From Spirochaetia bacterium (lineage in GTDB: Bacteria > Spirochaetota > Spirochaetia > CADAEX01), in the NCBI GenBank assembly GCA_031548835.1, contig JAVBQS010000001.1:1-44054 (forward strand): 44,054 bases of DNA. Reading direction: 5' to 3'. A model generated the notes under the pieces. It saw only the letters and a program-made list of their open reading frames with translations. It was not told the origin of the DNA and ran no database searches. Each line of letters opens with the position of its first letter. Position 1 is the first letter of the stretch. Position numbers and translations under genes: made by a program. This document shows, in pieces, positions 25,536 through 35,872 of this stretch.

Positions 25536-28500
25536 TTACACAATTCTGTTTCTTCCCAGATCTTTTGCCTTGTAAAGATTTTCATCTGCTGCTGCAAGAA
25601 GCTGTGCTGCAGTTTCAGGATTGACAGCATTGGTATATGAAATTCCAATGCTTACTGTGATATACCGTATTCCTTTTTCGTTACTTCCATTTTGTATCTT
25701 TTTTTCTTCAACTTTCTTTCTTATTCTTTCAGCAACAATGCGGGATCCGGTCAAATCAGTATCTACCAGCAATATAACAAACTCTTCCCCGCCATAGCGG
25801 AAAACACTATCTGTTTTTCTGTTCATAGCTTCAAGGATAATGTCGGCAACAGTTTTAATAGCCTTATCGCCTGCAACATGTCCATATGTATCATTAAAAT
25901 TTTTAAAATAATCTATATCAAGCATTAATACAGAAAAGTTTAGTTTTGTTCTTATATATAAATCCCAAAGCCGTCCGAAAATTTCTTCAAAATGTTTTCT
26001 GTTATGCACACCTGTAAGATTATCAATACGAGTCTGCCTTTCAAGCTGAAGATTAACAGTCAGAAGTTCATCTTTAAGCCTGCTGACTTCATCAAGTCTT
26101 TTGCTGACTTCCCCTCCTTTTACAATTATTATAATACCGTAAAAAAATGCTGCTATAGCCAGAAGATAAAAAAGATAGGCTATGGGAGTCCTATAAAAAG
26201 GAGGTATAATATTTATTTTTAGCGATGCTTCTTTTGTACTCCAGATTCCGCTGCTATTTGTTCCTGTCACCCTAAATATATAGTTTCCAGGAGGAATTGA
26301 AGTATAGCTTGCATAATTTCTTTCTCCTGAATAGATCCACTCTTTATCAAATCCTTCAAGTATATATTTATATTTTCTGCCTTCGGAAAAACTGTAATCA
26401 ATAGCGCTAAAGTCAAAGGAAATATGGCCGTCATACCATTTAAGGCTTGTCTCTTTTTCTGCAAAAATATTTTTACCAAAAATATCGAGATATGATTTAT
26501 CAAAGATTTTTAAATCAGTAATAACAATTTCAGAATTTACCTTGTTAAGATAATAAAAAGCAGTATTGATTTTATATATTTCTTCCATTGTTCCGATAAA
26601 AATATTTCCGTTTTTATCTTTTGTAATACCGCCGTAAAAATTAATCCTGTTTAATCCAAAATGGTTTGTAAGGCTTGTTACAGTGGATAACTCTATATTT
26701 GCTTTTTTTGCAATCATTGAAATACCCATAAAAGTCACAGCAATAATATTACCTTTCTGATCTTCAGTTAGTCCCATAGCTGTATTGTGTTCAAGCCCTT
26801 CTTCTTTGGTAAAACTATAAAAATTATTTTTATCTTTGTTAAAGACAGAAACTCCGCCTCCACTAGTGCCTATCCACACATTTCCGGCAGAATCACAATA
26901 AATAGCCTTTATACTATTACTTGAAAGAGAGTGGGTATCATAAGAATTATGATTATAAATATCTATAGTATTAGTTGCAGGGTTAAAACTGTTTAATCCG
27001 TTATCTGTTCCTATCCAGACAATTCCATCTTTATTAATATCAATTGCATATACTGTATTATCAGACAATCTTTTACCAGGAGGTAAATCTTTTGAAAAAT
27101 GGGTTGTTATTCCGCTTGCCTTATCCCAGATATATACACCATTAGATGTTCCAAGCCAAAGCCTTCCATATTCATCTTCTTTTCCTGAGTAAAATTTGTT
27201 ATCTGCAATATTTATAGGTATATCTGCATTTTTTCTATAATTTAAAATTTTCTTTCCATCAATATAATAATGTTCAAAACTTTTAGTTTTTCTATTAAAT
27301 TTATCCAGGCCTGAATCTGTAAAAACCCATATATTTTCCATGCTGTCAATTAATAGTGAATTGACATTATTACTGCTTAAAGAATTAAAATTATCAGGAT
27401 TATAGCCATAATGTTCTTTATTTTTATTTTCATTATCAAATATATAAATTCCATTTTTTGTTGATCCGACCCACAGATTATCCCTGTTATCAATTAGTAA
27501 TGAACTAACTCCGTTATTTTCAATTTTATAAGTTTCTCCTATATGAAAATGATATTTATAACTTCGCTGCATCTGGTTAAGCTTATTTACCCCGCTCCCA
27601 TCTGTTCCAACCCATATACGGGCTGAACTATCTTCAAAAATTGAATATATAATATTACTGCTTAATGAATATTCATTATCCTGTTCATGTGAAATTTTTA
27701 TATAATTATTTCTTTTTATACTTTCAAGATTATTAAAATAATAAATTCCGCCGCCCCATGTTCCTACCCAAATATGCCCTCTAGTATCATACTCAATTGT
27801 ATATATCCTATTATCGCCAAGTTTATTCACAGAGTATTCTTTAGAAACAGGGTCAAATAAAATAACACCTTCTCCCCAGCATCCTATTAAGAGAAGGCCC
27901 ATAGATATTTCTTCAATGCTGGTAAATTTTTCTGTATTTGAATAGATATTTGTTCTTTTATAATTCTGAAAATAATTTATAAAAGTTTCATTTTTATATA
28001 ATGCTATTCCATTATAAGTACTTACCCATATATTATTTTTGGAATCGCATAAAATATCTTTTATATTGTTATCAGGCAGAGATAAAGGATCCTCTTTGTT
28101 ATGCAGATAAACTGTTGAATCTTTTGTTTTGTCATCGATTTTTACAAGCCCATTAGTTGTTCCAACCCAAAAATCTCCCTTACTGTCTTTTTTTATCGCA
28201 GTAATTTCTCCATCAAGAATTTTTTGTGCTTCAATATTACTTAATGATACATTTAATATTTTTTCAGTTACAGGATTTAATATACAAAGCCCTTCTTTTG
28301 TGCCTATCCATATAAAATCTTTATCATAATCATAAAATATTGTTTTTATAAAATTATTTCTTAAAGAATCAGGATTAAATGGTTCATATTCAAAAAGGCG
28401 GAATTCTTTGCTATCATAACGATTAATGCCGTCATTGGTTGAAAACCATATAAATCCTCTTTTATCCTGTATAATTCCTGAAACATTGTTATTTGCAAGG

Positions 28501-28616
28501 CCGTCAAATGTAGTTATTTTTTCAAAGCGGAAATCTTGCGGGTAAATCTTTTCTGACAACACTGTTAGAGTAAAAATAATTAAAAATCTGACATATTTCA
28601 GAGGATTATCCATCAT
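25536..28616 (-). CDS. Ligand-binding sensor diguanylate cyclase (beta-propeller repeats + Y_Y_Y + TM + GGDEF)
   Basis: Repeated DxxGxIWxGTxxG propeller units, YKYILEGFDKEW/PPGNYIFRV, DIDYFKNFND, RYGGEEF, RKTD I-site. Confidence 0.92.
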   Translation of the reverse strand: MMDNPLKYVRFLIIFTLTVLSEKIYPQDFRFEKITTFDGLANNNVSGIIQDKRGFIWFSTNDGINRYDSKEFRLFEYEPFNPDSLRNNFIKTIFYDYDKDFIWIGTKEGLCILNPVTEKILNVSLSNIEAQKILDGEITAIKKDSKGDFWVGTTNGLVKIDDKTKDSTVYLHNKEDPLSLPDNNIKDILCDSKNNIWVSTYNGIALYKNETFINYFQNYKRTNIYSNTEKFTSIEEISMGLLLIGCWGEGVILFDPVSKEYSVNKLGDNRIYTIEYDTRGHIWVGTWGGGIYYFNNLESIKRNNYIKISHEQDNEYSLSSNIIYSIFEDSSARIWVGTDGSGVNKLNQMQRSYKYHFHIGETYKIENNGVSSLLIDNRDNLWVGSTKNGIYIFDNENKNKEHYGYNPDNFNSLSSNNVNSLLIDSMENIWVFTDSGLDKFNRKTKSFEHYYIDGKKILNYRKNADIPINIADNKFYSGKEDEYGRLWLGTSNGVYIWDKASGITTHFSKDLPPGKRLSDNTVYAIDINKDGIVWIGTDNGLNSFNPATNTIDIYNHNSYDTHSLSSNSIKAIYCDSAGNVWIGTSGGGVSVFNKDKNNFYSFTKEEGLEHNTAMGLTEDQKGNIIAVTFMGISMIAKKANIELSTVTSLTNHFGLNRINFYGGITKDKNGNIFIGTMEEIYKINTAFYYLNKVNSEIVITDLKIFDKSYLDIFGKNIFAEKETSLKWYDGHISFDFSAIDYSFSEGRKYKYILEGFDKEWIYSGERNYASYTSIPPGNYIFRVTGTNSSGIWSTKEASLKINIIPPFYRTPIAYLFYLLAIAAFFYGIIIIVKGGEVSKRLDEVSRLKDELLTVNLQLERQTRIDNLTGVHNRKHFEEIFGRLWDLYIRTKLNFSVLMLDIDYFKNFNDTYGHVAGDKAIKTVADIILEAMNRKTDSVFRYGGEEFVILLVDTDLTGSRIVAERIRKKVEEKKIQNGSNEKGIRYITVSIGISYTNAVNPETAAQLLAAADENLYKAKDLGRNRIV

Positions 28617-28650
28617 AGTTGGCTATATTATACTTTATAAATATATAAAA

Positions 28651-29247
28651 CTATAATTTAATTTCTTTTTTCAGAATATAATCTGCAAAACCTGATTTTT
28701 TTAACAGTTCCTGACATCTTGCAATATCGTTTTCTTCAAGATCAGCAAGAACTACTCTAAAAATGCCTTTATCAGTTTTTTCCATAGTCGGGTTTAATCC
28801 ATTTGAATTTAAACGTAAAATTATATTTTCTGCATTTTTTACATTGCTGTATGCGCCAATCTGAATCTTGTAGACAAAATTTTCTGCTTTGTTTCCATCA
28901 CCTTCAATTATATCTATAGAAACTTTTGCCACACCGCAGTCAATTATTCCAATTTCCTGGGCAGCTGCATAGGAAAGGTCTATTATTCTTCCTTCAACAA
29001 ACGGGCCTCTGTCATTTATTCTGACAATAGCTGTTTTTCCATTCTCAAGATTTCTGACTCTAACAACTGTATCAAATGGAAGATTTTTATGCGCTGCTGT
29101 GAATTTATATGTATCAAAAATCTCTCCGTTTGCTGTCTTTCTTCCATGGAATTTATCAGCATACCAGGAAGCATAGCCTGTCTGTTCAGCAAAAACAAAT
29201 GGGCTTATAATAAAAAAAAGCAGTAAAAAAACAGGTAAATTTTTCAT
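28651..29247 (-). CDS. rlpA: Septal ring lytic transglycosylase RlpA family (DPBB + SPOR)
   Basis: GYASWY, TANGE, TAAHK.LPF, INDRGPF, IIDLS; C-terminal IQIGAY SPOR. Confidence 0.9.
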
Positions 29248-29332
29248 AAATTTATTATCGGTTTATATTCATATTTTAATCATATAAATCATTATTGAAC
29301 AATAGGATAAAATCCATATATACTTTTGAAAT

Positions 29333-30928
29333 ATGGAAAATAATGTAACTTCTACACACTGGGCAGATATAAATGCTGATAAAATTATAAGAGAAAGAAA
29401 AAAATATCTTGGAGGAGATAAAGAATGGTTTGTCTGCGCATCAGGCATAACTCCTTCGGGAACTGTTCATATAGGTAATTTCAGGGAGATAATCTCTGTT
29501 GAACTTGTTGTAAGGGCTCTTAAAGATAAAGGCGAAAAAGTAAAATTTATATATTCCTGGGATGATTATGATGTATTCAGAAAAGTTCCTGCAAATATGC
29601 CTAACAGGGAAAATCTTGAAAAATATTTACGCTTTCCAATAACAATGGTCCCAGATCCCTGGGGCAAGGAAAAGAGTTATGCAAGGGCAAATGAGGTTGA
29701 GCTTGAATCCCTGCTTCCATCTGTCGGTGTTTTTCCCGAATATATTTACCAGGCAGATAAATATAGAAATTCAGATTATGCACAAGGCATAAGAACTGCT
29801 CTTGAAAACAAAGAAAAAATAAGAAAACTTCTTGATGCCCACAGGACAGAGCCGCTTGAAAAAAAGTGGATGCCTGTATCTGTTTTCTGCAGCAAATGCA
29901 ATAAAGACAGGATAGAAGCTCTGGCCTGGGATAATGAATGGGGCATTACATATAACTGTTCTTCATGCGGCAATAAAGAAACAGTTGATCTTCGTAAAAC
30001 TTCGTGTGTAAAACTGCCGTGGCGCATAGACTGGCCGATGCGCTGGGCTTATGAAAAAGTTGATTTTGAACCTGCAGGAAAAGACCACCATTCAGAGGGA
30101 GGCTCTTTTGATACTGCAAAAAATATTGCAAAAGAAGTTTTTAACCATGAACCTCCTGTTACTTTCCAGTATGATTTTTTAAGCATAAAAGGAAGGGGCG
30201 GAAAAATTTCATCATCAAGCGGCGAAGTTATAAGCCTGCGCGATGTTCTTGAGATATATGAACCTGAAATTGTAAGATACATGTTTGCAGGAACAAGGCC
30301 GAACACAGAATTTGCAATATCGTTTGATCTTGATGTAATAAAAATATATGAAGATTATGATAAATGCGAAAGAATATATTTTGGAAAAGAAGCTATAAAT
30401 GATAAAAAAGCAGAGAAAGAAAAAAGAATATATGAGCTTTCTCAGGTAAAGGCTGTTCCTTCTGAAATGCCGCATCAGATTCCATTCAGGCATTTGTGTA
30501 ATCTTTTGCAGATACATTCAGGAAATATCAATGCTTTATTAATAGAAGAATTCAGTAATTTGAGCGAAGCGCAAAAGAAAAAAATAGAGGCAAGAGCAGA
30601 GTGCGCATGGAGATGGATAACCAATTTTGCGCCTGAAGATTTTAAATTTACGATAAGATCAGCATCTGATTCTGCTGTTATTGTTGATGAAAAATCTGCA
30701 AAGATGTTAAAGCTTCTTGCAGATGAAACAGGAAAGCTTGAAAACCATACAGAAGTTTCTCTTGCAGAAGCAATTTATAAAATAGCGCAGGATAATGAGA
30801 CAGATCCAAAAGATCTTTTTAAGCTTATATATACTGTTCTTATAGGAAAGGAAAAAGGGCCAAGGCTTTCTGGTTTTATATTAACAGCAGGCAAAAACAA
30901 GATTCTGCCACTGCTTGAAAAATATTAG
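29333..30928 (+). CDS. lysS: Lysine--tRNA ligase, class I
   Basis: HWAD, SGITPSGTVHIGNFRE, KLPWRIDWPMRW, EPAGKDH, KISSSSG, GPRL. Confidence 0.96.
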   Translation: MENNVTSTHWADINADKIIRERKKYLGGDKEWFVCASGITPSGTVHIGNFREIISVELVVRALKDKGEKVKFIYSWDDYDVFRKVPANMPNRENLEKYLRFPITMVPDPWGKEKSYARANEVELESLLPSVGVFPEYIYQADKYRNSDYAQGIRTALENKEKIRKLLDAHRTEPLEKKWMPVSVFCSKCNKDRIEALAWDNEWGITYNCSSCGNKETVDLRKTSCVKLPWRIDWPMRWAYEKVDFEPAGKDHHSEGGSFDTAKNIAKEVFNHEPPVTFQYDFLSIKGRGGKISSSSGEVISLRDVLEIYEPEIVRYMFAGTRPNTEFAISFDLDVIKIYEDYDKCERIYFGKEAINDKKAEKEKRIYELSQVKAVPSEMPHQIPFRHLCNLLQIHSGNINALLIEEFSNLSEAQKKKIEARAECAWRWITNFAPEDFKFTIRSASDSAVIVDEKSAKMLKLLADETGKLENHTEVSLAEAIYKIAQDNETDPKDLFKLIYTVLIGKEKGPRLSGFILTAGKNKILPLLEKY

Positions 30929-30956
30929 TCACCAGCAGAAGTGAAGTGTCCCCCTC

Positions 30957-31018
30957 GTCTTCCCGGCTGCCGAAGGCATGCCGGGAACTATACAGATTCC
31001 TGCCTTCGCAGGAATGAC
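30957..31018. repeat. Paired GC-rich palindromes (GTC...GAC bounded, REP/dRS3-like); the right one is also the candidate DGR hairpin
   Basis: TTCCCGGC-TGCC-GAA-GGCA-T-GCCGGGAA (30960-30987) and ATTCCTGC-CTTC-GCAGGAAT (30996-31015). Confidence 0.75.
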
Positions 31019-31025
31019 ATTGGGT

Positions 31026-32786
31026 TTACTCTGTCCTTAAAAAACGGAAGCCTATAAAGTCGTACCGGGAATTAGGCGTGTTGCTGACGCGGTATGCAAC
31101 AGCGCAGCCAGATGCATCGAAGTTCCAGTCGCCGCCGCGTATAACACGGCCAGACTCTGGACTACTTCCCGGCCCAGAGTAATCTGTCTGAGCTGTTCCG
31201 GGATAAGTGTCATACCAATCCCAGCACCATTCATATACATTACCGCTCATATCATATAAACCCAGTTCATTTGCTGTTCTCTTTTTTACCTCATGGGTTT
31301 TACTGCCGGAATTAACATCATACCAGGCATAATCTCCTATAAGCCCTCCGCCGGCTTCGGGATTATCATCTCCTGCATATTCTTTTTTATACCCATTAAT
31401 AGAAGCCACTGCTCCTATTACTGCCCACATCCACTCCATCTCGGTAGGAAGCCTGTAGCCATTTGCAGCCCAGTTTACTGTTGCTGCATTCCATACAGGG
31501 TCATCAGCTACAGGAATATCTCCATATGCCAAAGTGTTAAAATCTACTCCGCTTACTATATATACTGGTGTTTTTCCATCCAGTATGCTTAATTTATTGC
31601 AGAATGCTATTGCATCATACCAGCTTACCTGCTCTACTGGCCGCTTTTCCTGTATTTCTGTGCTTTCAGGAAGATGTGTAGCTCCCTGAAAATAACTTGG
31701 GTTAATTCCCATTACTGCTTCCCATAAACCTTGCGTTACTTCTGTTTCTGCCATTATAAAGCTTGATACTGTCATGTCTGGATCACTTGCTCCAAGTTTA
31801 AATGTCCCGCCTGTAACTGATACCATATTAAATTGTATAGTTACACCGCTTGCCATACTGCTAAGGCTGCTTTCTGCTCCGCTTGTGCTTTTTGCCCTTA
31901 CCCATGCATAATATGTTGTTCCATAGATAAGGCCTGTTATTGTTGCGGTAGTTCCTGTTATTCCTGTAACATTTGGAGAACCTGGAGGTGTCGGGCTTGT
32001 GCTGTAATAAATATCATAACTTGCTGCTCCTGTTACTGCGTTCCAGCTTACTGTTATTCTTTTTACTCCTCCTGTTACTGTTACGCCTTGCGGTACAGGC
32101 ATTATTGTGCTTCGGCTTTGTACTGCACTTGGAGCGCTTTCTCCTGCAGCATTGCTTGCTGTTACCCATATATAATAAACTGTTCCATCAGCAAGTCCTG
32201 TTATTGTTTTATTAAGAGATGTTCCTGCATCTGTTCCTGTTGCAGATGCAAAATTATCTGCTGTGTGGTAATAAACCTTGTACCCTGTTGCTCCTGTTAC
32301 TGTACTCCACGATACATTTATTTCTCCGGCGTCCCCTGCTGTTACAGCAACGCCTGTTGGGGAAGCAGGTGCTGTTATTGCTGCAACCGGTGTTCCTGTT
32401 TTTGCTGTACTAACAGCGCTTGATCCTGCACTATTGTGCGCCTGTACCCAGATGTTATAAGTTGTTCCATTTAAAAGGCCTGTTATTACTTTACTTGCTT
32501 CTGTTATATTTTCATGTTTATTTGCTGATTCGTAATTAGCTGCAGTACCATAGTAAACTGTATATTTACTTGCATTTGACACAATATCCCAGCTTACTGT
32601 TAGCTGAGCATCTGCTGGTGTTACTCTAACATTTGAAGGAGAAGCTGGGGCTGTTCCGCCTCCGCCAGGGTTATTTCCATTATCAGGATCTGTACCGCCT
32701 GAGCTGTCGCAGCCAATTGAAATAAATACCATTCCTGTAATAAATATTAAAACTGTAATTACTTTTAATAACCTGCTTAAAGTCAT
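31026..32786 (-). CDS. Lipoprotein with three FN3 domains and C-terminal FGE-sulfatase/C-type-lectin domain (TvpA-like DGR-type variable protein)
   Basis: Lipobox SIGC; three FN3 repeats (VSW...Y.VYY...ITGL..GT.Y..WV.A); ETEVTQ, PVEQVSWYDA, YRLPTEMEW, NELGLYDMSGNVYEWCWD, RVIRGGDW, IGFR. Confidence 0.9.
   Translation of the reverse strand: MTLSRLLKVITVLIFITGMVFISIGCDSSGGTDPDNGNNPGGGGTAPASPSNVRVTPADAQLTVSWDIVSNASKYTVYYGTAANYESANKHENITEASKVITGLLNGTTYNIWVQAHNSAGSSAVSTAKTGTPVAAITAPASPTGVAVTAGDAGEINVSWSTVTGATGYKVYYHTADNFASATGTDAGTSLNKTITGLADGTVYYIWVTASNAAGESAPSAVQSRSTIMPVPQGVTVTGGVKRITVSWNAVTGAASYDIYYSTSPTPPGSPNVTGITGTTATITGLIYGTTYYAWVRAKSTSGAESSLSSMASGVTIQFNMVSVTGGTFKLGASDPDMTVSSFIMAETEVTQGLWEAVMGINPSYFQGATHLPESTEIQEKRPVEQVSWYDAIAFCNKLSILDGKTPVYIVSGVDFNTLAYGDIPVADDPVWNAATVNWAANGYRLPTEMEWMWAVIGAVASINGYKKEYAGDDNPEAGGGLIGDYAWYDVNSGSKTHEVKKRTANELGLYDMSGNVYEWCWDWYDTYPGTAQTDYSGPGSSPESGRVIRGGDWNFDASGCAVAYRVSNTPNSRYDFIGFRFLRTE
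31044..31154 (-). repeat. Candidate DGR variable repeat (VR)
   Basis: 19 of 37 codons end in C, in a gene otherwise dominated by A/T-ending codons; the variable positions read NNC/NNT, as expected from mutated AAC/AAT. Confidence 0.7.
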
Positions 32787-32978
32787 AAAAGCTCCTTTTG
32801 TTGTTATAGATTGAAGATAATGTTAGCTTTTAAAAGAATAATATACTCTGAGTAATATTATTTATAAAGAGTAAAAATAGTAAACAATATCTTTTCATCA
32901 TAAAAAATAGTATTTTTTACTATTTTTTTAGATACTGTTTTACAATGGTATGACTGGGCAGGATATTCCAAATTGGTG

Positions 32979-33899
32979 TTAATTAATAAGCCTGGTTAAG
33001 ATCCCTCTTTTTTTTCTCCAGTTATGATTAACTTTAACACGTAAATCTATTTTAACAGGATAAGGAAAGATTGATTTTATCTCTTTTTTTGCAGCAATTC
33101 TTATTGCTTTTATTTTTTCCCCGCCGCTTCCTATAAGTATTCTTTTCTGTGATTCATTTTCTGCTATTAAAAAAGCTCTTACCCAAAGTTCTTCTCCCTG
33201 GGGAGTTTCTGCCATTTCAATATCTGCAATTTCAACATAAAGGCTGTGAGGGATTTCTTCTCTTGTTCTGTTTACAGCTTTTTCTCTTATTATTTCGCTT
33301 ATTCTAAAAGAGACATCCTGATCTGTATAAATATCATCAGGATATAGCTTTTCTCCCTCTGGCGCTTTTTCAAACATTGCATCAAGAAGTTTATCTTTGC
33401 CTTCCCCTGTCATTGCTGAAACATGACAGATAGAAATATCTTTTTTATTATCTATTTTTCTAAGATTTTTTTTCAAAAAATTTTCAAGACTTATTAAAAA
33501 CTCTTTTTTATTTTTTTCAGCTATTTCCAGAAGATCTATTTTGTTTAAAGCAATTATTATAATAGCATTAAGCGATGCAAGATATTCAATTATCTTTTTT
33601 TCTTCTTCGCCAGGCTCTCTTGTGCAGTCAAAAACATATAGAATTATCTCTGCATCATTAACAACATTTTCAGTAATATTTTTAAGTTCTGTATTTATTG
33701 TTTTTTCTGAGACATGGTAGCCTGGAGTATCCTGAAAAACAAACTGGCCTCTTTCTTCAGTATAAATACCGCGTATTATATTTCTTGTTGTCTGCGGAGT
33801 TGCAGATACAATTGAAACTTTATGCCCGCATATTTTATTAACAAGAGTAGATTTTCCCGATGAAGGCCTGCCTATTAATGTGATAAATGTTGATTTCAC
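32979..33899 (-). CDS. era: GTPase Era
   Basis: GRPSSGKST, PQTTR, DTPG, NKID, SA, KH domain IGSGGEKIK; GTG start at 33899 after GAGGT. Confidence 0.93.
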   Translation of the reverse strand: MKSTFITLIGRPSSGKSTLVNKICGHKVSIVSATPQTTRNIIRGIYTEERGQFVFQDTPGYHVSEKTINTELKNITENVVNDAEIILYVFDCTREPGEEEKKIIEYLASLNAIIIIALNKIDLLEIAEKNKKEFLISLENFLKKNLRKIDNKKDISICHVSAMTGEGKDKLLDAMFEKAPEGEKLYPDDIYTDQDVSFRISEIIREKAVNRTREEIPHSLYVEIADIEMAETPQGEELWVRAFLIAENESQKRILIGSGGEKIKAIRIAAKKEIKSIFPYPVKIDLRVKVNHNWRKKRGILTRLIN

Positions 33900-33961
33900 T
33901 TTTTTACAATACCTCAATTACTTTGCAATTAATTATATTAATATTACTTTATAAATTAAAT

Positions 33962-35872
33962 CTATTCCAGTTCAAATATTCCAGTATAAAGCTGGTAATA
34001 TCTTCCTTTTTGCATAAGCAGCTGCCCAGGTGTTCCGCTTTCAATAATTCTTCCCCCATCCATTACCATAATAACATCAGAATTTCTGATTGTGGAAAGC
34101 CTGTGAGCAATAACAAAAACAGTCCTCCCATGCATAAGAGAATCCATTCCTTTCTGGACAATCATCTCTGTGCGGGTATCTATGCTTGAAGTTGCTTCAT
34201 CAAGAATCATTACAAGAGGATCAGCGACTGCAGCGCGGGCAATTGCCAATAATTGCCGCTGTCCCTGGGATATACCTTCGCCGCTTCCTGTAATAACAGT
34301 ATTGTATTTTTCAGGAAGCATTGATATAAATCCATCTGCATTTGCAAGTTTTGCTGCTGCATATACATTTTCATCATCTGCATCAAGTTTCCCATACCTG
34401 ATATTTTCCATAATTGTTCCTGTAAAAAGATGGGTATCCTGCAGAACAATACCCTGACTGCGGCGCAGGTCGCTTTTTTTTATTTTATCAATGCTAATGC
34501 CATCATAAAGAATTTGTCCTTTTTGAATATCATAAAATCTGTTTATAAGATTTGTCATTGTTGTTTTTCCTGCGCCTGTTGCTCCTACAAATGCAACTTT
34601 CTTTCCAGGTTCTGCATGCATAGTTATATTGTGTAAAACTGTTTTATCTTTTTCATATCCAAAATCAACATCAACAAAGCTGACATCTCCTGTAAAAGGT
34701 ATGTATTTTTTGCTGCCGTCTTTTTGCAGATATTTCCATGCCCTTATTTTTGTTTTTTCTTTTGTTTCAATTAATGTCTTTTCATTATTATCATATTTTG
34801 CATTTACAAGAGTTATTTCTCCGCTATCTTCTTCCTCTTTTTCATCCATAAGGTTAAAGATACGCTGCGCTCCTGCCATAGCCATTATTACAGAATTAAG
34901 CTGCTGCGAAACCTGGTTTATCGGCATGTTAAAAGAACGGCTTAACTGCAGGAAGGCTGCAATTGATCCAAGAGTAAGCCCGCCTATTCCGCTTACAGCA
35001 AGAGCGCCCCCTGCTATTGCAAGAAATACATATTGAAGGTTTCCCATATTAACCATAAGAGGCATTAACATATTGGCATAACTGTTTGCTTTGCTTGCTG
35101 TTTCTCCAAGTTCTTTGTTATGCATATCAAAATGTTTTTTTGCTTCTTCTTCATAACAAAATACTTTTACAACTTTCTGGCCATGCATCATCTCTTCGAT
35201 ATATCCGTTTATTTTACCTATTACGCTCTGTTGTTTGATAAAATAAGAAGAACTTCTTCCTCCTATTTTTCTTACAATAAAAAATATTCCTACAACCATG
35301 ACAACTACCAGCATTGTTAAAAATATGTTGACATAGATCATTGCAGAAAAAACAAAAATTATTGTAATAACAGAAGAAAATACCTGCGGAATACTCTGTG
35401 AAATCATCTGCCTGAGTGTATCAATATCATTTGTATAACGGCTCATAATATCGCCATGAGTATGTGTGTCAAAATATTTAATCGGAAGGCTTTGCATATG
35501 CGAAAACATCTGGTCGCGTATCTCTTTCTGCACACCCTGCTCAATAGTAACCATAATCAGGTTATATATTAATGCAGATGCAACACCTACCAGATAAATT
35601 CCTGCCATAATAAAAATAGCTTTAATAAGGCCTGTAAACAGAGGCTTGCTGCTTCCAAGCATTGGGGTTATATATTTATCAATTAAAATTTGCAGAAACA
35701 GGGAACCTGCAACAGATGCAATAGCGCTTATAAGAATACATATTAAAACAAAAAGAAAACGAATTTTATATGTTCCTGTTAAATAAGAAAGCAGCCGCTT
35801 TGCTGTTTTTCCTGCATCTTTTACAGATACTTTGCTGTAGGCAGCCGCAGTTCTTCTGTTAGGCAACATCAT
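33962..35872 (-). CDS. ABC exporter ATP-binding/permease subunit (consensus-site half of a heterodimer)
   Basis: TM domain, GATGAGKT, ISQGQRQ, ILDEATS, AHRLST; start MMLPN after AGGAGG. Confidence 0.92.
   Translation of the reverse strand: MMLPNRRTAAAYSKVSVKDAGKTAKRLLSYLTGTYKIRFLFVLICILISAIASVAGSLFLQILIDKYITPMLGSSKPLFTGLIKAIFIMAGIYLVGVASALIYNLIMVTIEQGVQKEIRDQMFSHMQSLPIKYFDTHTHGDIMSRYTNDIDTLRQMISQSIPQVFSSVITIIFVFSAMIYVNIFLTMLVVVMVVGIFFIVRKIGGRSSSYFIKQQSVIGKINGYIEEMMHGQKVVKVFCYEEEAKKHFDMHNKELGETASKANSYANMLMPLMVNMGNLQYVFLAIAGGALAVSGIGGLTLGSIAAFLQLSRSFNMPINQVSQQLNSVIMAMAGAQRIFNLMDEKEEEDSGEITLVNAKYDNNEKTLIETKEKTKIRAWKYLQKDGSKKYIPFTGDVSFVDVDFGYEKDKTVLHNITMHAEPGKKVAFVGATGAGKTTMTNLINRFYDIQKGQILYDGISIDKIKKSDLRRSQGIVLQDTHLFTGTIMENIRYGKLDADDENVYAAAKLANADGFISMLPEKYNTVITGSGEGISQGQRQLLAIARAAVADPLVMILDEATSSIDTRTEMIVQKGMDSLMHGRTVFVIAHRLSTIRNSDVIMVMDGGRIIESGTPGQLLMQKGRYYQLYTGIFELE

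What the first reader, a model, noticed from the sequence alone, without database searches (positions are those of the whole stretch)
31026..31154. Orphan DGR variable repeat: a remote hypermutation target with no TR or RT in the window
Seen: the coding strand reads TCT GGC CGT GTT ATA CGC GGC GGC GAC TGG AAC TTC GAT GCA TCT GGC TGC GCT GTT GCA TAC CGC GTC AGC AAC ACG CCT AAT TCC CGG TAC GAC TTT ATA GGC TTC CGT. 19 of 37 codons end in C, against the strong A/T-ending bias of the rest of the gene. Established: DGRs copy an AAC-rich template repeat with adenine-specific mutagenesis into the C-terminal VR of C-type-lectin/FGE-fold proteins, e.g. Treponema denticola lipoprotein TvpA. Inference: the segment back-converts to a canonical template (SNRVKRGGNWNNNASNCTVANRNNNxPNNRNNNIGFR) using only changes to A, at about 14 codons. 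No TR, RT or avd was found in these 44 kb, so the gene would be diversified in trans from a distant cassette while sitting between housekeeping genes lysS and era.
Basis: partly seen in the sequence, partly recalled or inferred. Interest (0 to 1): 0.88.

Follow-up and report, generated by a model that had tools for sequence, protein, structure and literature searches.

The report
Hypermutation scar in a surface lipoprotein
The last 37 codons of a spirochaete surface-lipoprotein gene carry the footprint of a retroelement that rewrites adenines, but the retroelement is not in the assembled genome, a situation already described for oral Treponema strains.

Summary
Window 31044-31154 (minus strand) holds the quoted 37 codons. 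19 of them end in C, against 72 of 544 in the rest of the gene. The gene (31026-32786) encodes a 586-aa probable lipoprotein with three FN3 domains and a C-terminal FGE-sulfatase/C-type-lectin domain. Its closest solved relative is T. denticola TvpA.

The DGR reading of the segment holds without a template. Two paralogues in the same genome share its scaffold. Across the three copies, 2 of 67 invariant columns are A, against 65 of 198 upstream. Variation falls on codon positions 1, 2 and 3 as 18, 20 and 6.

The "diversified in trans" part is not supported. No TR, reverse transcriptase, Avd or HRDC gene was found in the 92.4%-complete, 234-contig genome. No reverse transcriptase was found in four congeners. 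Two scaffold masks found nothing in public metagenome, genome or viral contigs.

This matches the leftover target genes reported in 8 of 17 T. denticola strains (PMC4891356). It is a new member of a known kind. Contig-only read data could not tell a lost cassette from an unassembled one.

The parts
31026..32786 (-). Gene for a 586-aa TvpA-like variable lipoprotein
   Evidence: ORF. Pfam FGE-sulfatase E 9.5e-39 and fn3 E 2.5e-25. Best solved relative is 2y3c_A TvpA, E 8.2e-62.
32709..32786 (-). Signal peptide ending in a lipobox-like ..SIGC, with Cys at residue 26 (probable lipoprotein)
   Evidence: Read from the translation. This is an inference and no predictor was run. The paralogues on C221 and C7 also start with a hydrophobic leader ending in Cys.
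31842..32654 (-). Three fibronectin type III repeats (about residues 45-315)
   Evidence: Pfam fn3, 3 stretches, best at residues 142-221. The outer limits are approximate.
31038..31829 (-). FGE-sulfatase / C-type-lectin-fold domain (residues 320-583)
   Evidence: Pfam match. AlphaFold model has mean pLDDT 84.9 and pTM 0.89. Foldseek top hit is 2y3c with TM 0.88/0.86, rmsd 2.3 A and 43% identity.
31044..31154 (-). Variable repeat: 37 codons (residues 545-581), of which 25 vary among the three sibling copies
   Evidence: Of 67 invariant columns, 2 are A. The 44 variable columns fall on codon positions 1, 2 and 3 as 18, 20 and 6. 36 of the 44 hold an A in at least one copy.
30996..31015 (-). Hairpin with an 8-bp stem and 4-nt loop, starting 11 nt after the stop codon. 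It is a copy of a small dispersed repeat and is probably not DGR-specific.
   Evidence: Fold. Other copies lie after unrelated genes on C132, C188, C131 and C204.
30960..30987 (-). Second, longer hairpin between the convergent lipoprotein gene and lysS. It is probably a shared terminator or REP-like element.
   Evidence: The 122-nt stretch folds at -24.7 kcal/mol, z -3.88, and 0 of 200 shuffles fold as well. A 34-nt stretch of it is identical on C132.

Best explanation
The segment is a genuine DGR variable repeat. It was written by mutagenic retrohoming: cDNA copied from a template repeat, with template adenines read at random, replaced the 3' end of the gene. This diversified the ligand-binding face of a TvpA-like C-type-lectin domain held on a surface lipoprotein by three FN3 spacers.

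The same template wrote at least two other paralogues in this genome, on contigs C221 and C7. An older, decayed copy lies on C157.

Shown here: the fold, the position of the repeat, and the adenine-specific pattern shared by the copies.

Inferred: the core cassette (TR, reverse transcriptase, accessory gene) has since been lost. The gene is then a frozen leftover target that still encodes one fixed binding variant, as in T. denticola strains that lack the core DGR.
For: (1) Fold and family. The best solved relative is TvpA, by sequence (E 8.2e-62) and by model (TM 0.88). The repeat aligns to TvpA's C-terminal variable stretch with the same fixed residues.

(2) Scaffold copies. A scan of the whole genome with the 70 positions shared by the three copies finds only C90, C221 and C7 at 70 of 70, and C157 at 56 of 70.

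(3) Adenine signature. In the three copies 2 of 67 invariant columns are A. In the upstream part of the same three genes 65 of 198 are A (Fisher p 7.7e-8). Variable columns by codon position are 18, 20 and 6, against 37, 36 and 47 upstream (p 0.0023). 36 of 44 variable columns hold an A in at least one copy.

(4) C90 against C221. In 37 repeat codons the differences at positions 1, 2 and 3 are 15, 16 and 4. In 211 upstream codons they are 43, 47 and 71 (p 2e-4). The repeat was therefore rewritten long after the paralogues diverged.

(5) No cassette found. PF00078 has no hit at E<=1 in the genome or at E<=0.001 in any of 4 congeners, two of them 99% complete. tblastn with 4 reverse transcriptases and 3 accessory proteins from relatives' DGRs gives a best E of 0.10. 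PF05635 reaches only 12.9 bits and HRDC gives no hit. No A-rich copy of the scaffold exists, whole or in thirds.

(6) Erosion. The C7 copy is split by a frameshift. The C157 copy has drifted at 14 of 70 scaffold positions.

(7) Precedent. The DGR is present in only 9 of 17 T. denticola strains. The other 8 keep target genes with adenine-type repeats (2 to 6 in the table rows shown), which the authors call leftovers (PMC4891356, passages read).
Against: No template is in hand, so the defining TR-to-VR comparison could not be made. The adenine pattern is inferred from three copies that I picked because they share a scaffold.

The C90 copy shows no non-adenine deviation from the shared scaffold. 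The four C/T differences lie in C221 and C7. Its last rewriting was therefore recent, which fits a live cassette as well as a recent loss.

All five species of the genus carry their own scaffold families and none has a reverse transcriptase. Five separate losses is less economical than one systematic failure to assemble or bin the cassette.

The genome is 92.4% complete in 234 contigs.
Confidence: 0.5

Rival explanations
1. The repeat is still being rewritten in trans. The organism has a TR, reverse transcriptase and accessory cassette, chromosomal or on a mobile element, that the metagenome assembly or binning missed.
For: The C90 scaffold has 0 non-adenine deviations. C90 and C221 differ at only 2 non-adenine columns, while 71 of 211 upstream third positions differ.

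The genome is 92.4% complete in 234 contigs. Contig C157 breaks 237 nt after its target gene, inside a repeat of the paralogues' 5' regions.

All five congeners have species-specific scaffold families, which implies template activity after speciation.

PMC8144416 notes that fragmented metagenome assemblies hide DGRs that act on remote targets (passage). PMC5758913 documents remote targets for the Treponema DGR (passages).
Against: No reverse transcriptase, template or accessory gene was found in this genome. No reverse transcriptase was found in 4 congeners, two of them 99% complete.

Nine ORFs flanking the five-gene target array of G001 include no reverse transcriptase.

The three repeats sit inside contigs of 26 to 44 kb without assembly breaks. 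One target is frameshifted.

Two scaffold masks found nothing in public metagenome, genome or viral contigs.
Confidence: 0.35
2. The target genes were acquired horizontally with their repeats already written. This lineage never had the cassette.
For: The gene is lineage-specific at this locus. In G001 lysS and era are adjacent. In G004 a LuxR-like gene lies between them. G003 has that gene plus a differently oriented FGE gene with 33% identity. In G002 neither era nor an FGE gene was found within 5 kb downstream of lysS; the ORFs there are unrelated.

The repeat has no nucleotide match in 19 genomes of the family. PMC4891356 mentions acquisition of a target alone as an alternative for one strain.
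Against: Three to four paralogues at separate loci share the scaffold. They also share leader peptides and 5' regions with one another. The FGE lipoprotein family is expanded in every congener, with 4 to 16 matches each. Several separate transfers, or a transfer followed by duplication without rewriting, would not give adenine-only differences between the copies.
Confidence: 0.07
3. No DGR was ever involved. The pattern is ordinary paralogue divergence, with diversifying selection on binding residues and purifying selection or gene conversion on the scaffold.
For: The fixed residues (R, G, W, C, V, A, P, F) are conserved across the whole FGE-sulfatase family and need no adenine at codon positions 1-2. 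Paralogues here are mosaics, which suggests gene conversion: the first 43 aligned domain residues of C90 and C221 are nearly identical.
Against: Selection does not explain why scaffold third positions avoid A in a gene where 245 of 544 codons end in A. It does not explain why 15 variable codons keep a fixed pyrimidine third base. It does not explain why 2 of 67 invariant columns are A against 65 of 198 in the control. Paralogues C198a and C145 show no such pattern, with differences spread about equally over the three codon positions.
Confidence: 0.05

Closest known systems
Leftover DGR target genes in Treponema denticola strains that lack the core DGR (Nimkulrat et al. 2016, PMC4891356; passages read)
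   Same: These are TvpA-like FGE-domain proteins, mostly lipoproteins. Their C-terminal repeats differ at template-adenine positions. Several scattered copies occur per genome, some truncated or over-mutated, and the genome has no reverse transcriptase and no template.
   Different: In T. denticola the template is known from sister strains, so the adenine pattern was read directly. Here no template exists in any collection searched, and the pattern is inferred from sibling copies. The host is a different genus from an invertebrate-gut metagenome. The protein carries three FN3 repeats.
TvpA and the T. denticola ATCC 35405 DGR with seven non-adjacent targets (Le Coq and Ghosh 2011, not read; cited through PMC5758913; PDB 2y3c)
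   Same: Same fold and same placement of the repeat (E 8.2e-62, TM 0.88). Both have multiple remote targets among unrelated genes.
   Different: The T. denticola system has a resident TR, HRDC gene and reverse transcriptase. None was found here. Identity to TvpA is about 43% over the domain.
Bordetella phage BPP-1 Mtd DGR (target recognition: Guo et al. 2011, PMC3240598; passages)
   Same: [quoted passage not shown] Counting from the last repeat codon, the distance falls within the 4-34 bp range given in that paper.
   Different: The loop here does not fit the 5'-GRNA consensus. The hairpin is a dispersed repeat that also follows unrelated genes. It cannot be taken as a DGR recognition element.
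Catalytic formylglycine-generating enzymes (human SUMF1, bacterial FGE)
   Same: Same domain family (PF03781). Structural matches have TM of about 0.6.
   Different: In the alignment to 6muj only one of the two cysteines of the enzyme's C..C pair has a counterpart. The protein is therefore read as a binding protein, not an enzyme. The catalytic role of the pair is recalled knowledge. It is supported only by the entry titles naming C336S and C341S mutants.

Membership tests
DGR target protein (CLec/FGE class, TvpA type) | C-type-lectin / FGE-sulfatase fold with the variable stretch at the C-terminus | tested here: met
   PF03781 E 9.5e-39 over residues 320-583. TvpA E 8.2e-62. The model matches 2y3c at TM 0.88 and rmsd 2.3 A. 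The repeat covers residues 545-581 of 586.
DGR target protein (CLec/FGE class, TvpA type) | Substitutions confined to template-adenine positions (NNY codons, adenine-free scaffold) | tested here: met
   Tested by proxy through three sibling copies. 2 of 67 invariant columns are A, against 65 of 198 in the control. Variation by codon position is 18, 20 and 6. 36 of 44 variable columns hold an A. 4 of the 44 variable columns are plain C/T changes.
Complete DGR system | Template repeat that matches the variable repeat except at adenines | tested here: not met
   A whole-genome scan with the 70-position scaffold finds only the four coding copies, and scans with each third find no template. blastn at word size 7 finds nothing else. 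Two masks give 0 hits in metagenome, genome and viral contigs. The genome is 92.4% complete.
Complete DGR system | DGR-clade reverse transcriptase | tested here: not met
   PF00078 has no hit at E<=1 in the genome. It has no hit at E<=0.001 in any of 4 congeners. tblastn with 4 relatives' reverse transcriptases gives a best E of 0.24.
Complete DGR system | Accessory gene (Avd or HRDC) | tested here: not met
   PF05635 gives a best of 12.9 bits against a cut-off of 33.8. PF00570 gives no hit. tblastn with three accessory proteins gives a best E of 0.10.
Complete DGR system | IMH and a dedicated hairpin or cruciform downstream of the variable repeat | tested here: inconclusive
   A hairpin with an 8-bp stem and 4-nt loop starts 11 nt after the stop codon. 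It is a dispersed repeat found after unrelated genes. The IMH cannot be defined without a template.
Active DGR target | Within-population variation confined to the variable repeat | not testable with these tools
   The only run that holds the locus is kept as contigs, which drop rare variants.
Catalytic formylglycine-generating enzyme | Pair of active-site cysteines in the C-terminal segment | tested here: not met
   In the alignment to 6muj the first cysteine of the pair aligns to F and only the second is kept. The role of the pair is recalled.

The most novel reading that the evidence does not exclude
A whole genus of invertebrate-gut treponemes keeps families of TvpA-like lipoproteins whose tips are rewritten, species by species, by a DGR core that is not a stable part of any chromosome. 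The core could be carried on a phage, a plasmid or another transient element that acts in trans on remote chromosomal targets and then leaves.

This would explain species-specific, internally concerted, adenine-free scaffolds in 5 of 5 genomes with no resident reverse transcriptase. It would go against the published expectation that phage-borne DGRs do not serve remote cellular targets (PMC5758913).
Probability: 0.12. Interest if true: 0.75.

Novelty: new member of a known kind. Interest (0 to 1): 0.4.

Why it matters
It shows that a DGR-written repeat can be recognised from sibling copies alone. The marks are adenine-free invariant columns and variation at codon positions 1-2. Surveys that start from the reverse transcriptase miss such targets.

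It extends the pattern of targets without a core from oral T. denticola to a gut-symbiont genus, where every sampled species shows it.

If the cassette turns out to be present but mobile or unbinned, the genus would be a good place to study trans-acting DGRs on many chromosomal surface proteins. If it is lost, the graded decay (fresh in G000 and G001, worn in G003 and G002) offers a time series of how frozen variable proteins erode.

Tried and rejected
(1) Read evidence. One run holds the locus (87% of sampled words, invertebrate gut metagenome) and is kept only as Logan contigs. Laid at 80% likeness, it gave 53 pieces, mostly from paralogues or other organisms. No listed error-free piece covers 30986-31237. 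The differences listed inside the repeat are not confined to the adenine strand. Contigs cannot show rare variants, so this says nothing about activity.

(2) The post-stop hairpin as a DGR recognition element. I rejected this as specific evidence because copies follow unrelated genes on C132, C188, C131 and C204.

(3) Public scans with two N-masked scaffold patterns gave 0 hits in metagenome, genome and viral contigs. Records of the window's own genome may be left out of those collections. blastn of the repeat against phages and plasmids found no match.

(4) The protein database has no near-identical orthologue to compare repeats between strains. The best non-self identity among the 120 listed proteins is 58%, and the protein's own cluster has one member.

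(5) Rfam found nothing above threshold in 28000-34500. The best match was 28 bits against a gathering score of 66.

(6) A 17-of-20 scaffold match on C173 lies in an unrelated frame and is chance.

(7) Near-closed genomes of the same family, G007 and G011 (1 contig each) and G013 (3 contigs), have one FGE match each. They offer no test of orphan families in a finished genome.

(8) The flanks of the G001 target array hold no reverse transcriptase among the 9 ORFs scanned.

Full report
WHAT IS THERE. The minus-strand ORF 31026..32786 encodes 586 aa. It starts with a hydrophobic leader ending in a lipobox-like Cys26 (read from the translation; inference). Three fibronectin type III repeats follow, then an FGE-sulfatase domain at residues 320-583 (Pfam E 9.5e-39). 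The gene lies between class-I lysS (29333..30928, +) and era (32979..33917, -).

The remaining bases down to 31026 are five more codons and the stop.

- 19 of the 37 codons end in C, against 72 of the other 544, where A-ending codons (245) dominate.
- This is the most C-ending 37-codon window of the gene. The binomial P is 3.3e-8.
- Only 3 of all stop-free frames of 300 aa or more in the genome (498,781 windows) contain a window that reaches 19. The other two look like non-coding frames.

WHAT THE PROTEIN IS. The closest solved structure by sequence is 2y3c_A, the Treponema denticola variable protein TvpA (E 8.2e-62). The alignment runs through the C-terminal stretch and keeps the same fixed residues.
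- A model built on 16 sequences has mean pLDDT 84.9 and pTM 0.89.
- Its best structural match is again 2y3c (E 9.1e-30, TM 0.88/0.86, rmsd 2.3 A, 43% identity). Catalytic FGEs follow at TM about 0.6.
- Against a bacterial FGE, only one of the enzyme's two paired cysteines has a counterpart. I therefore read the domain as a binding module, not an enzyme. The role of the pair is recalled.

THE DGR SIGNATURE WITHOUT A TEMPLATE. The genome (G000) has 2.53 Mb in 234 contigs and is 92.4% complete. The window is contig C90. tblastn finds FGE-domain paralogues on eight contigs.

Three of them resemble the 3' end of this gene at the DNA level:
- C221, a 290-aa lipoprotein.
- C7, split in two by a frameshift.
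- C157, a 1136-aa protein.

I took the 70 positions identical in C90, C221 and C7 over 114 nt and slid them over both strands of the whole genome. Only those three matched at 70 of 70, and C157 matched at 56 of 70. Nothing else reached 62%.

Within the 37 codons of the three copies:
- 67 columns are invariant, and only 2 of them are A. In the upstream part of the same three genes 65 of 198 are A (Fisher p 7.7e-8).
- 44 columns vary. They fall on codon positions 1, 2 and 3 as 18, 20 and 6, against 37, 36 and 47 upstream (p 0.0023).
- 36 of the 44 hold an A in at least one copy.
- Of the 8 that do not, 4 are plain C/T changes: two in C221, two in C7 and none in C90.

For the pair C90/C221, differences at positions 1, 2 and 3 are 15, 16 and 4 in the repeat. 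They are 43, 47 and 71 in 211 upstream codons. 25 of the 37 codons vary, and 15 of these keep a fixed pyrimidine third base. Paralogues C198a and C145 serve as controls and show no such pattern.

This is what adenine-specific mutagenic retrohoming from AAY-rich template codons produces. Selection or gene conversion would not produce it.

Two cautions apply. The three copies were chosen because they share a scaffold. The comparison is with each other, not with a template.

NO CASSETTE.
- The RVT_1 family has no hit at E<=1 in the genome.
- Among 41 genomes searched (G000 included), 9 have a reverse transcriptase hit. Within this family the count is 3 of 19, and among congeners 0 of 4. Two of the congeners are 99% complete.
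- tblastn with four reverse transcriptases and three accessory proteins from relatives' DGR-like loci gave nothing better than E 0.10.
- Avd-like PF05635 reached 12.9 bits, and HRDC gave no hit.
- No A-rich copy of the scaffold exists, whole or in thirds.
- Two N-masked patterns of the repeat found nothing in public metagenome, genome or viral contigs.
- blastn against phage and plasmid records found nothing.

CONTEXT IN THE GENUS. The lysS-era interval is variable.
- In G001 the two genes are adjacent.
- G004 has a LuxR-like gene between them.
- G003 has that gene plus an FGE gene in the other orientation with 33% identity and ordinary codon usage.
- In G002 neither era nor an FGE gene was found within 5 kb downstream of lysS; the ORFs there are unrelated.

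So this gene is a lineage-specific insertion among housekeeping genes.

All four congeners carry many FGE paralogues, with 16, 16, 11 and 4 matches. Each has a subset with its own adenine-poor scaffold. I chose the subsets below by eye and kept only 35-codon members. From G001 I left out two 37-codon copies, a duplicate and the C1 copy. From G003 and G002 I left out three and four copies with other scaffolds.
- G001 (3 copies): 1 of 65 invariant columns is A, and variation is 17, 17 and 6.
- G003 (5 copies): 2 of 54, and 18, 15 and 18.
- G002 (5 copies): 1 of 37, and 20, 19 and 29.

A masked pattern finds 6 copies in G001, five of them in tandem, and no template. It finds 4 in G003. No reverse transcriptase lies among 9 ORFs flanking the G001 array.

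The phenomenon is therefore genus-wide and shows graded decay.

THE DOWNSTREAM HAIRPINS. Two hairpins lie between the stop codon and lysS, and C221 shares them at 92% over 72 nt. The first has an 8-bp stem and a 4-nt loop and starts 11 nt after the stop codon. Counting from the last repeat codon, it lies within the 4-34 bp range reported for phage DGR targets (PMC3240598, passages). However, its loop does not fit GRNA, and copies follow unrelated genes elsewhere. I do not count it as DGR evidence.

WHAT IS KNOWN. I read passages only in all four papers cited here.
- The T. denticola DGR diversifies tvpA and seven scattered targets, uses an HRDC accessory gene, and serves FGE-type targets, the largest target class (PMC5758913).
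- The DGR is present in only 9 of 17 T. denticola strains. The other 8 have no reverse transcriptase and no template, yet keep target genes (2 to 6 in the table rows shown) whose repeats differ from the known template mostly at adenines. The authors call these leftovers. Some are truncated or over-mutated, and 62% are predicted lipoproteins (PMC4891356).
- Metagenome surveys that start from the reverse transcriptase cannot see remote targets (PMC8144416).
- One search for DGRs with termite and Treponema returned only an unrelated phage paper. That is a thin basis for saying the gut-symbiont case is not in print.
- Supplementary files, which hold the published templates, were closed.

VERDICT. 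The segment is a real DGR-written variable repeat in a TvpA-like lipoprotein. I put about 0.9 on a DGR origin of some kind.

As assembled, it is an orphan. I lean to a lost core and a frozen target (0.5) over a live cassette that the assembly missed (0.35).
- For a lost core: no congener has a reverse transcriptase, one sibling is frameshifted, another has decayed, and the case has an exact precedent.
- For a live cassette: the freshness of the C90 copy, and the fact that five species each have their own scaffold.

Raw reads of the source sample would decide. The only run available here is held as contigs and was uninformative.

It is a new member of a known kind and of moderate interest.

Noticed in passing
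G001:C3:96984-106574 (loci L081-L085) and G001:C1:79728-79786 (L086): A congener that is 99% complete has five tandem genes for 648-767-aa FGE proteins, plus one remote copy. All share one adenine-poor repeat scaffold, with variation at codon positions 1-2 (17, 17 and 6 in the three copies compared). No template and no reverse transcriptase were found in the genome or in the array's flanks.
   Followed up: partly
G003 (L047, L051, L055, L059, L066) and G002 (L053, L056, L060, L064, L069): Each species has its own scaffold family, with more third-position drift (18, 15, 18 and 20, 19, 29). Across the genus these form a decay series of DGR-type repeats.
   Followed up: partly
window 30960-31015; also G000 C221:34101-34172, C132:16704-16776, C188:76113-76138, C131:4283-4308, C204:281-306: A small dispersed palindromic repeat (one or two hairpins) sits in intergenic spacers after unrelated genes. 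It looks like a REP or terminator element. No Rfam family matches it.
   Followed up: partly
window 30929-32978 compared with L078, L091, L092, L093: The lysS-era interval is a variable spot in the genus. It is empty in G001. G004 has a LuxR-like gene there. G003 has a LuxR-like gene plus an unrelated-orientation FGE gene. In G002 neither era nor an FGE gene lies within 5 kb of lysS. G000 has the FN3-FGE lipoprotein gene.
   Followed up: yes
G000 C7:3265-4222 (L004:771-1728): The sibling target on C7 is split into two overlapping frames of 154 and 166 aa by a frameshift inside the FGE domain. It is either a pseudogene or an assembly error.
   Followed up: partly
G000 C157:13087-13324: The contig ends 237 nt after the C157 target gene. 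Its last 150 nt resemble the 5' regions of the paralogues on C157, C7 and C221. A further tandem paralogue is probably unassembled there.
   Followed up: partly
window 31700-31841 compared with G000 C221: The first 43 or so aligned residues of the FGE domains of C90 and C221 are nearly identical, although the domains are only about 56% identical overall. This mosaic structure suggests recombination among paralogues.
   Followed up: no
window 25536-28616 (-): A 1026-aa protein with a long repeat-rich N-terminal part (weak PorZ-like matches), one predicted membrane span and a C-terminal GGDEF diguanylate cyclase domain. Next to it is an RlpA-family lipoprotein gene with a SPOR-like end (28651-29247).
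   Followed up: no
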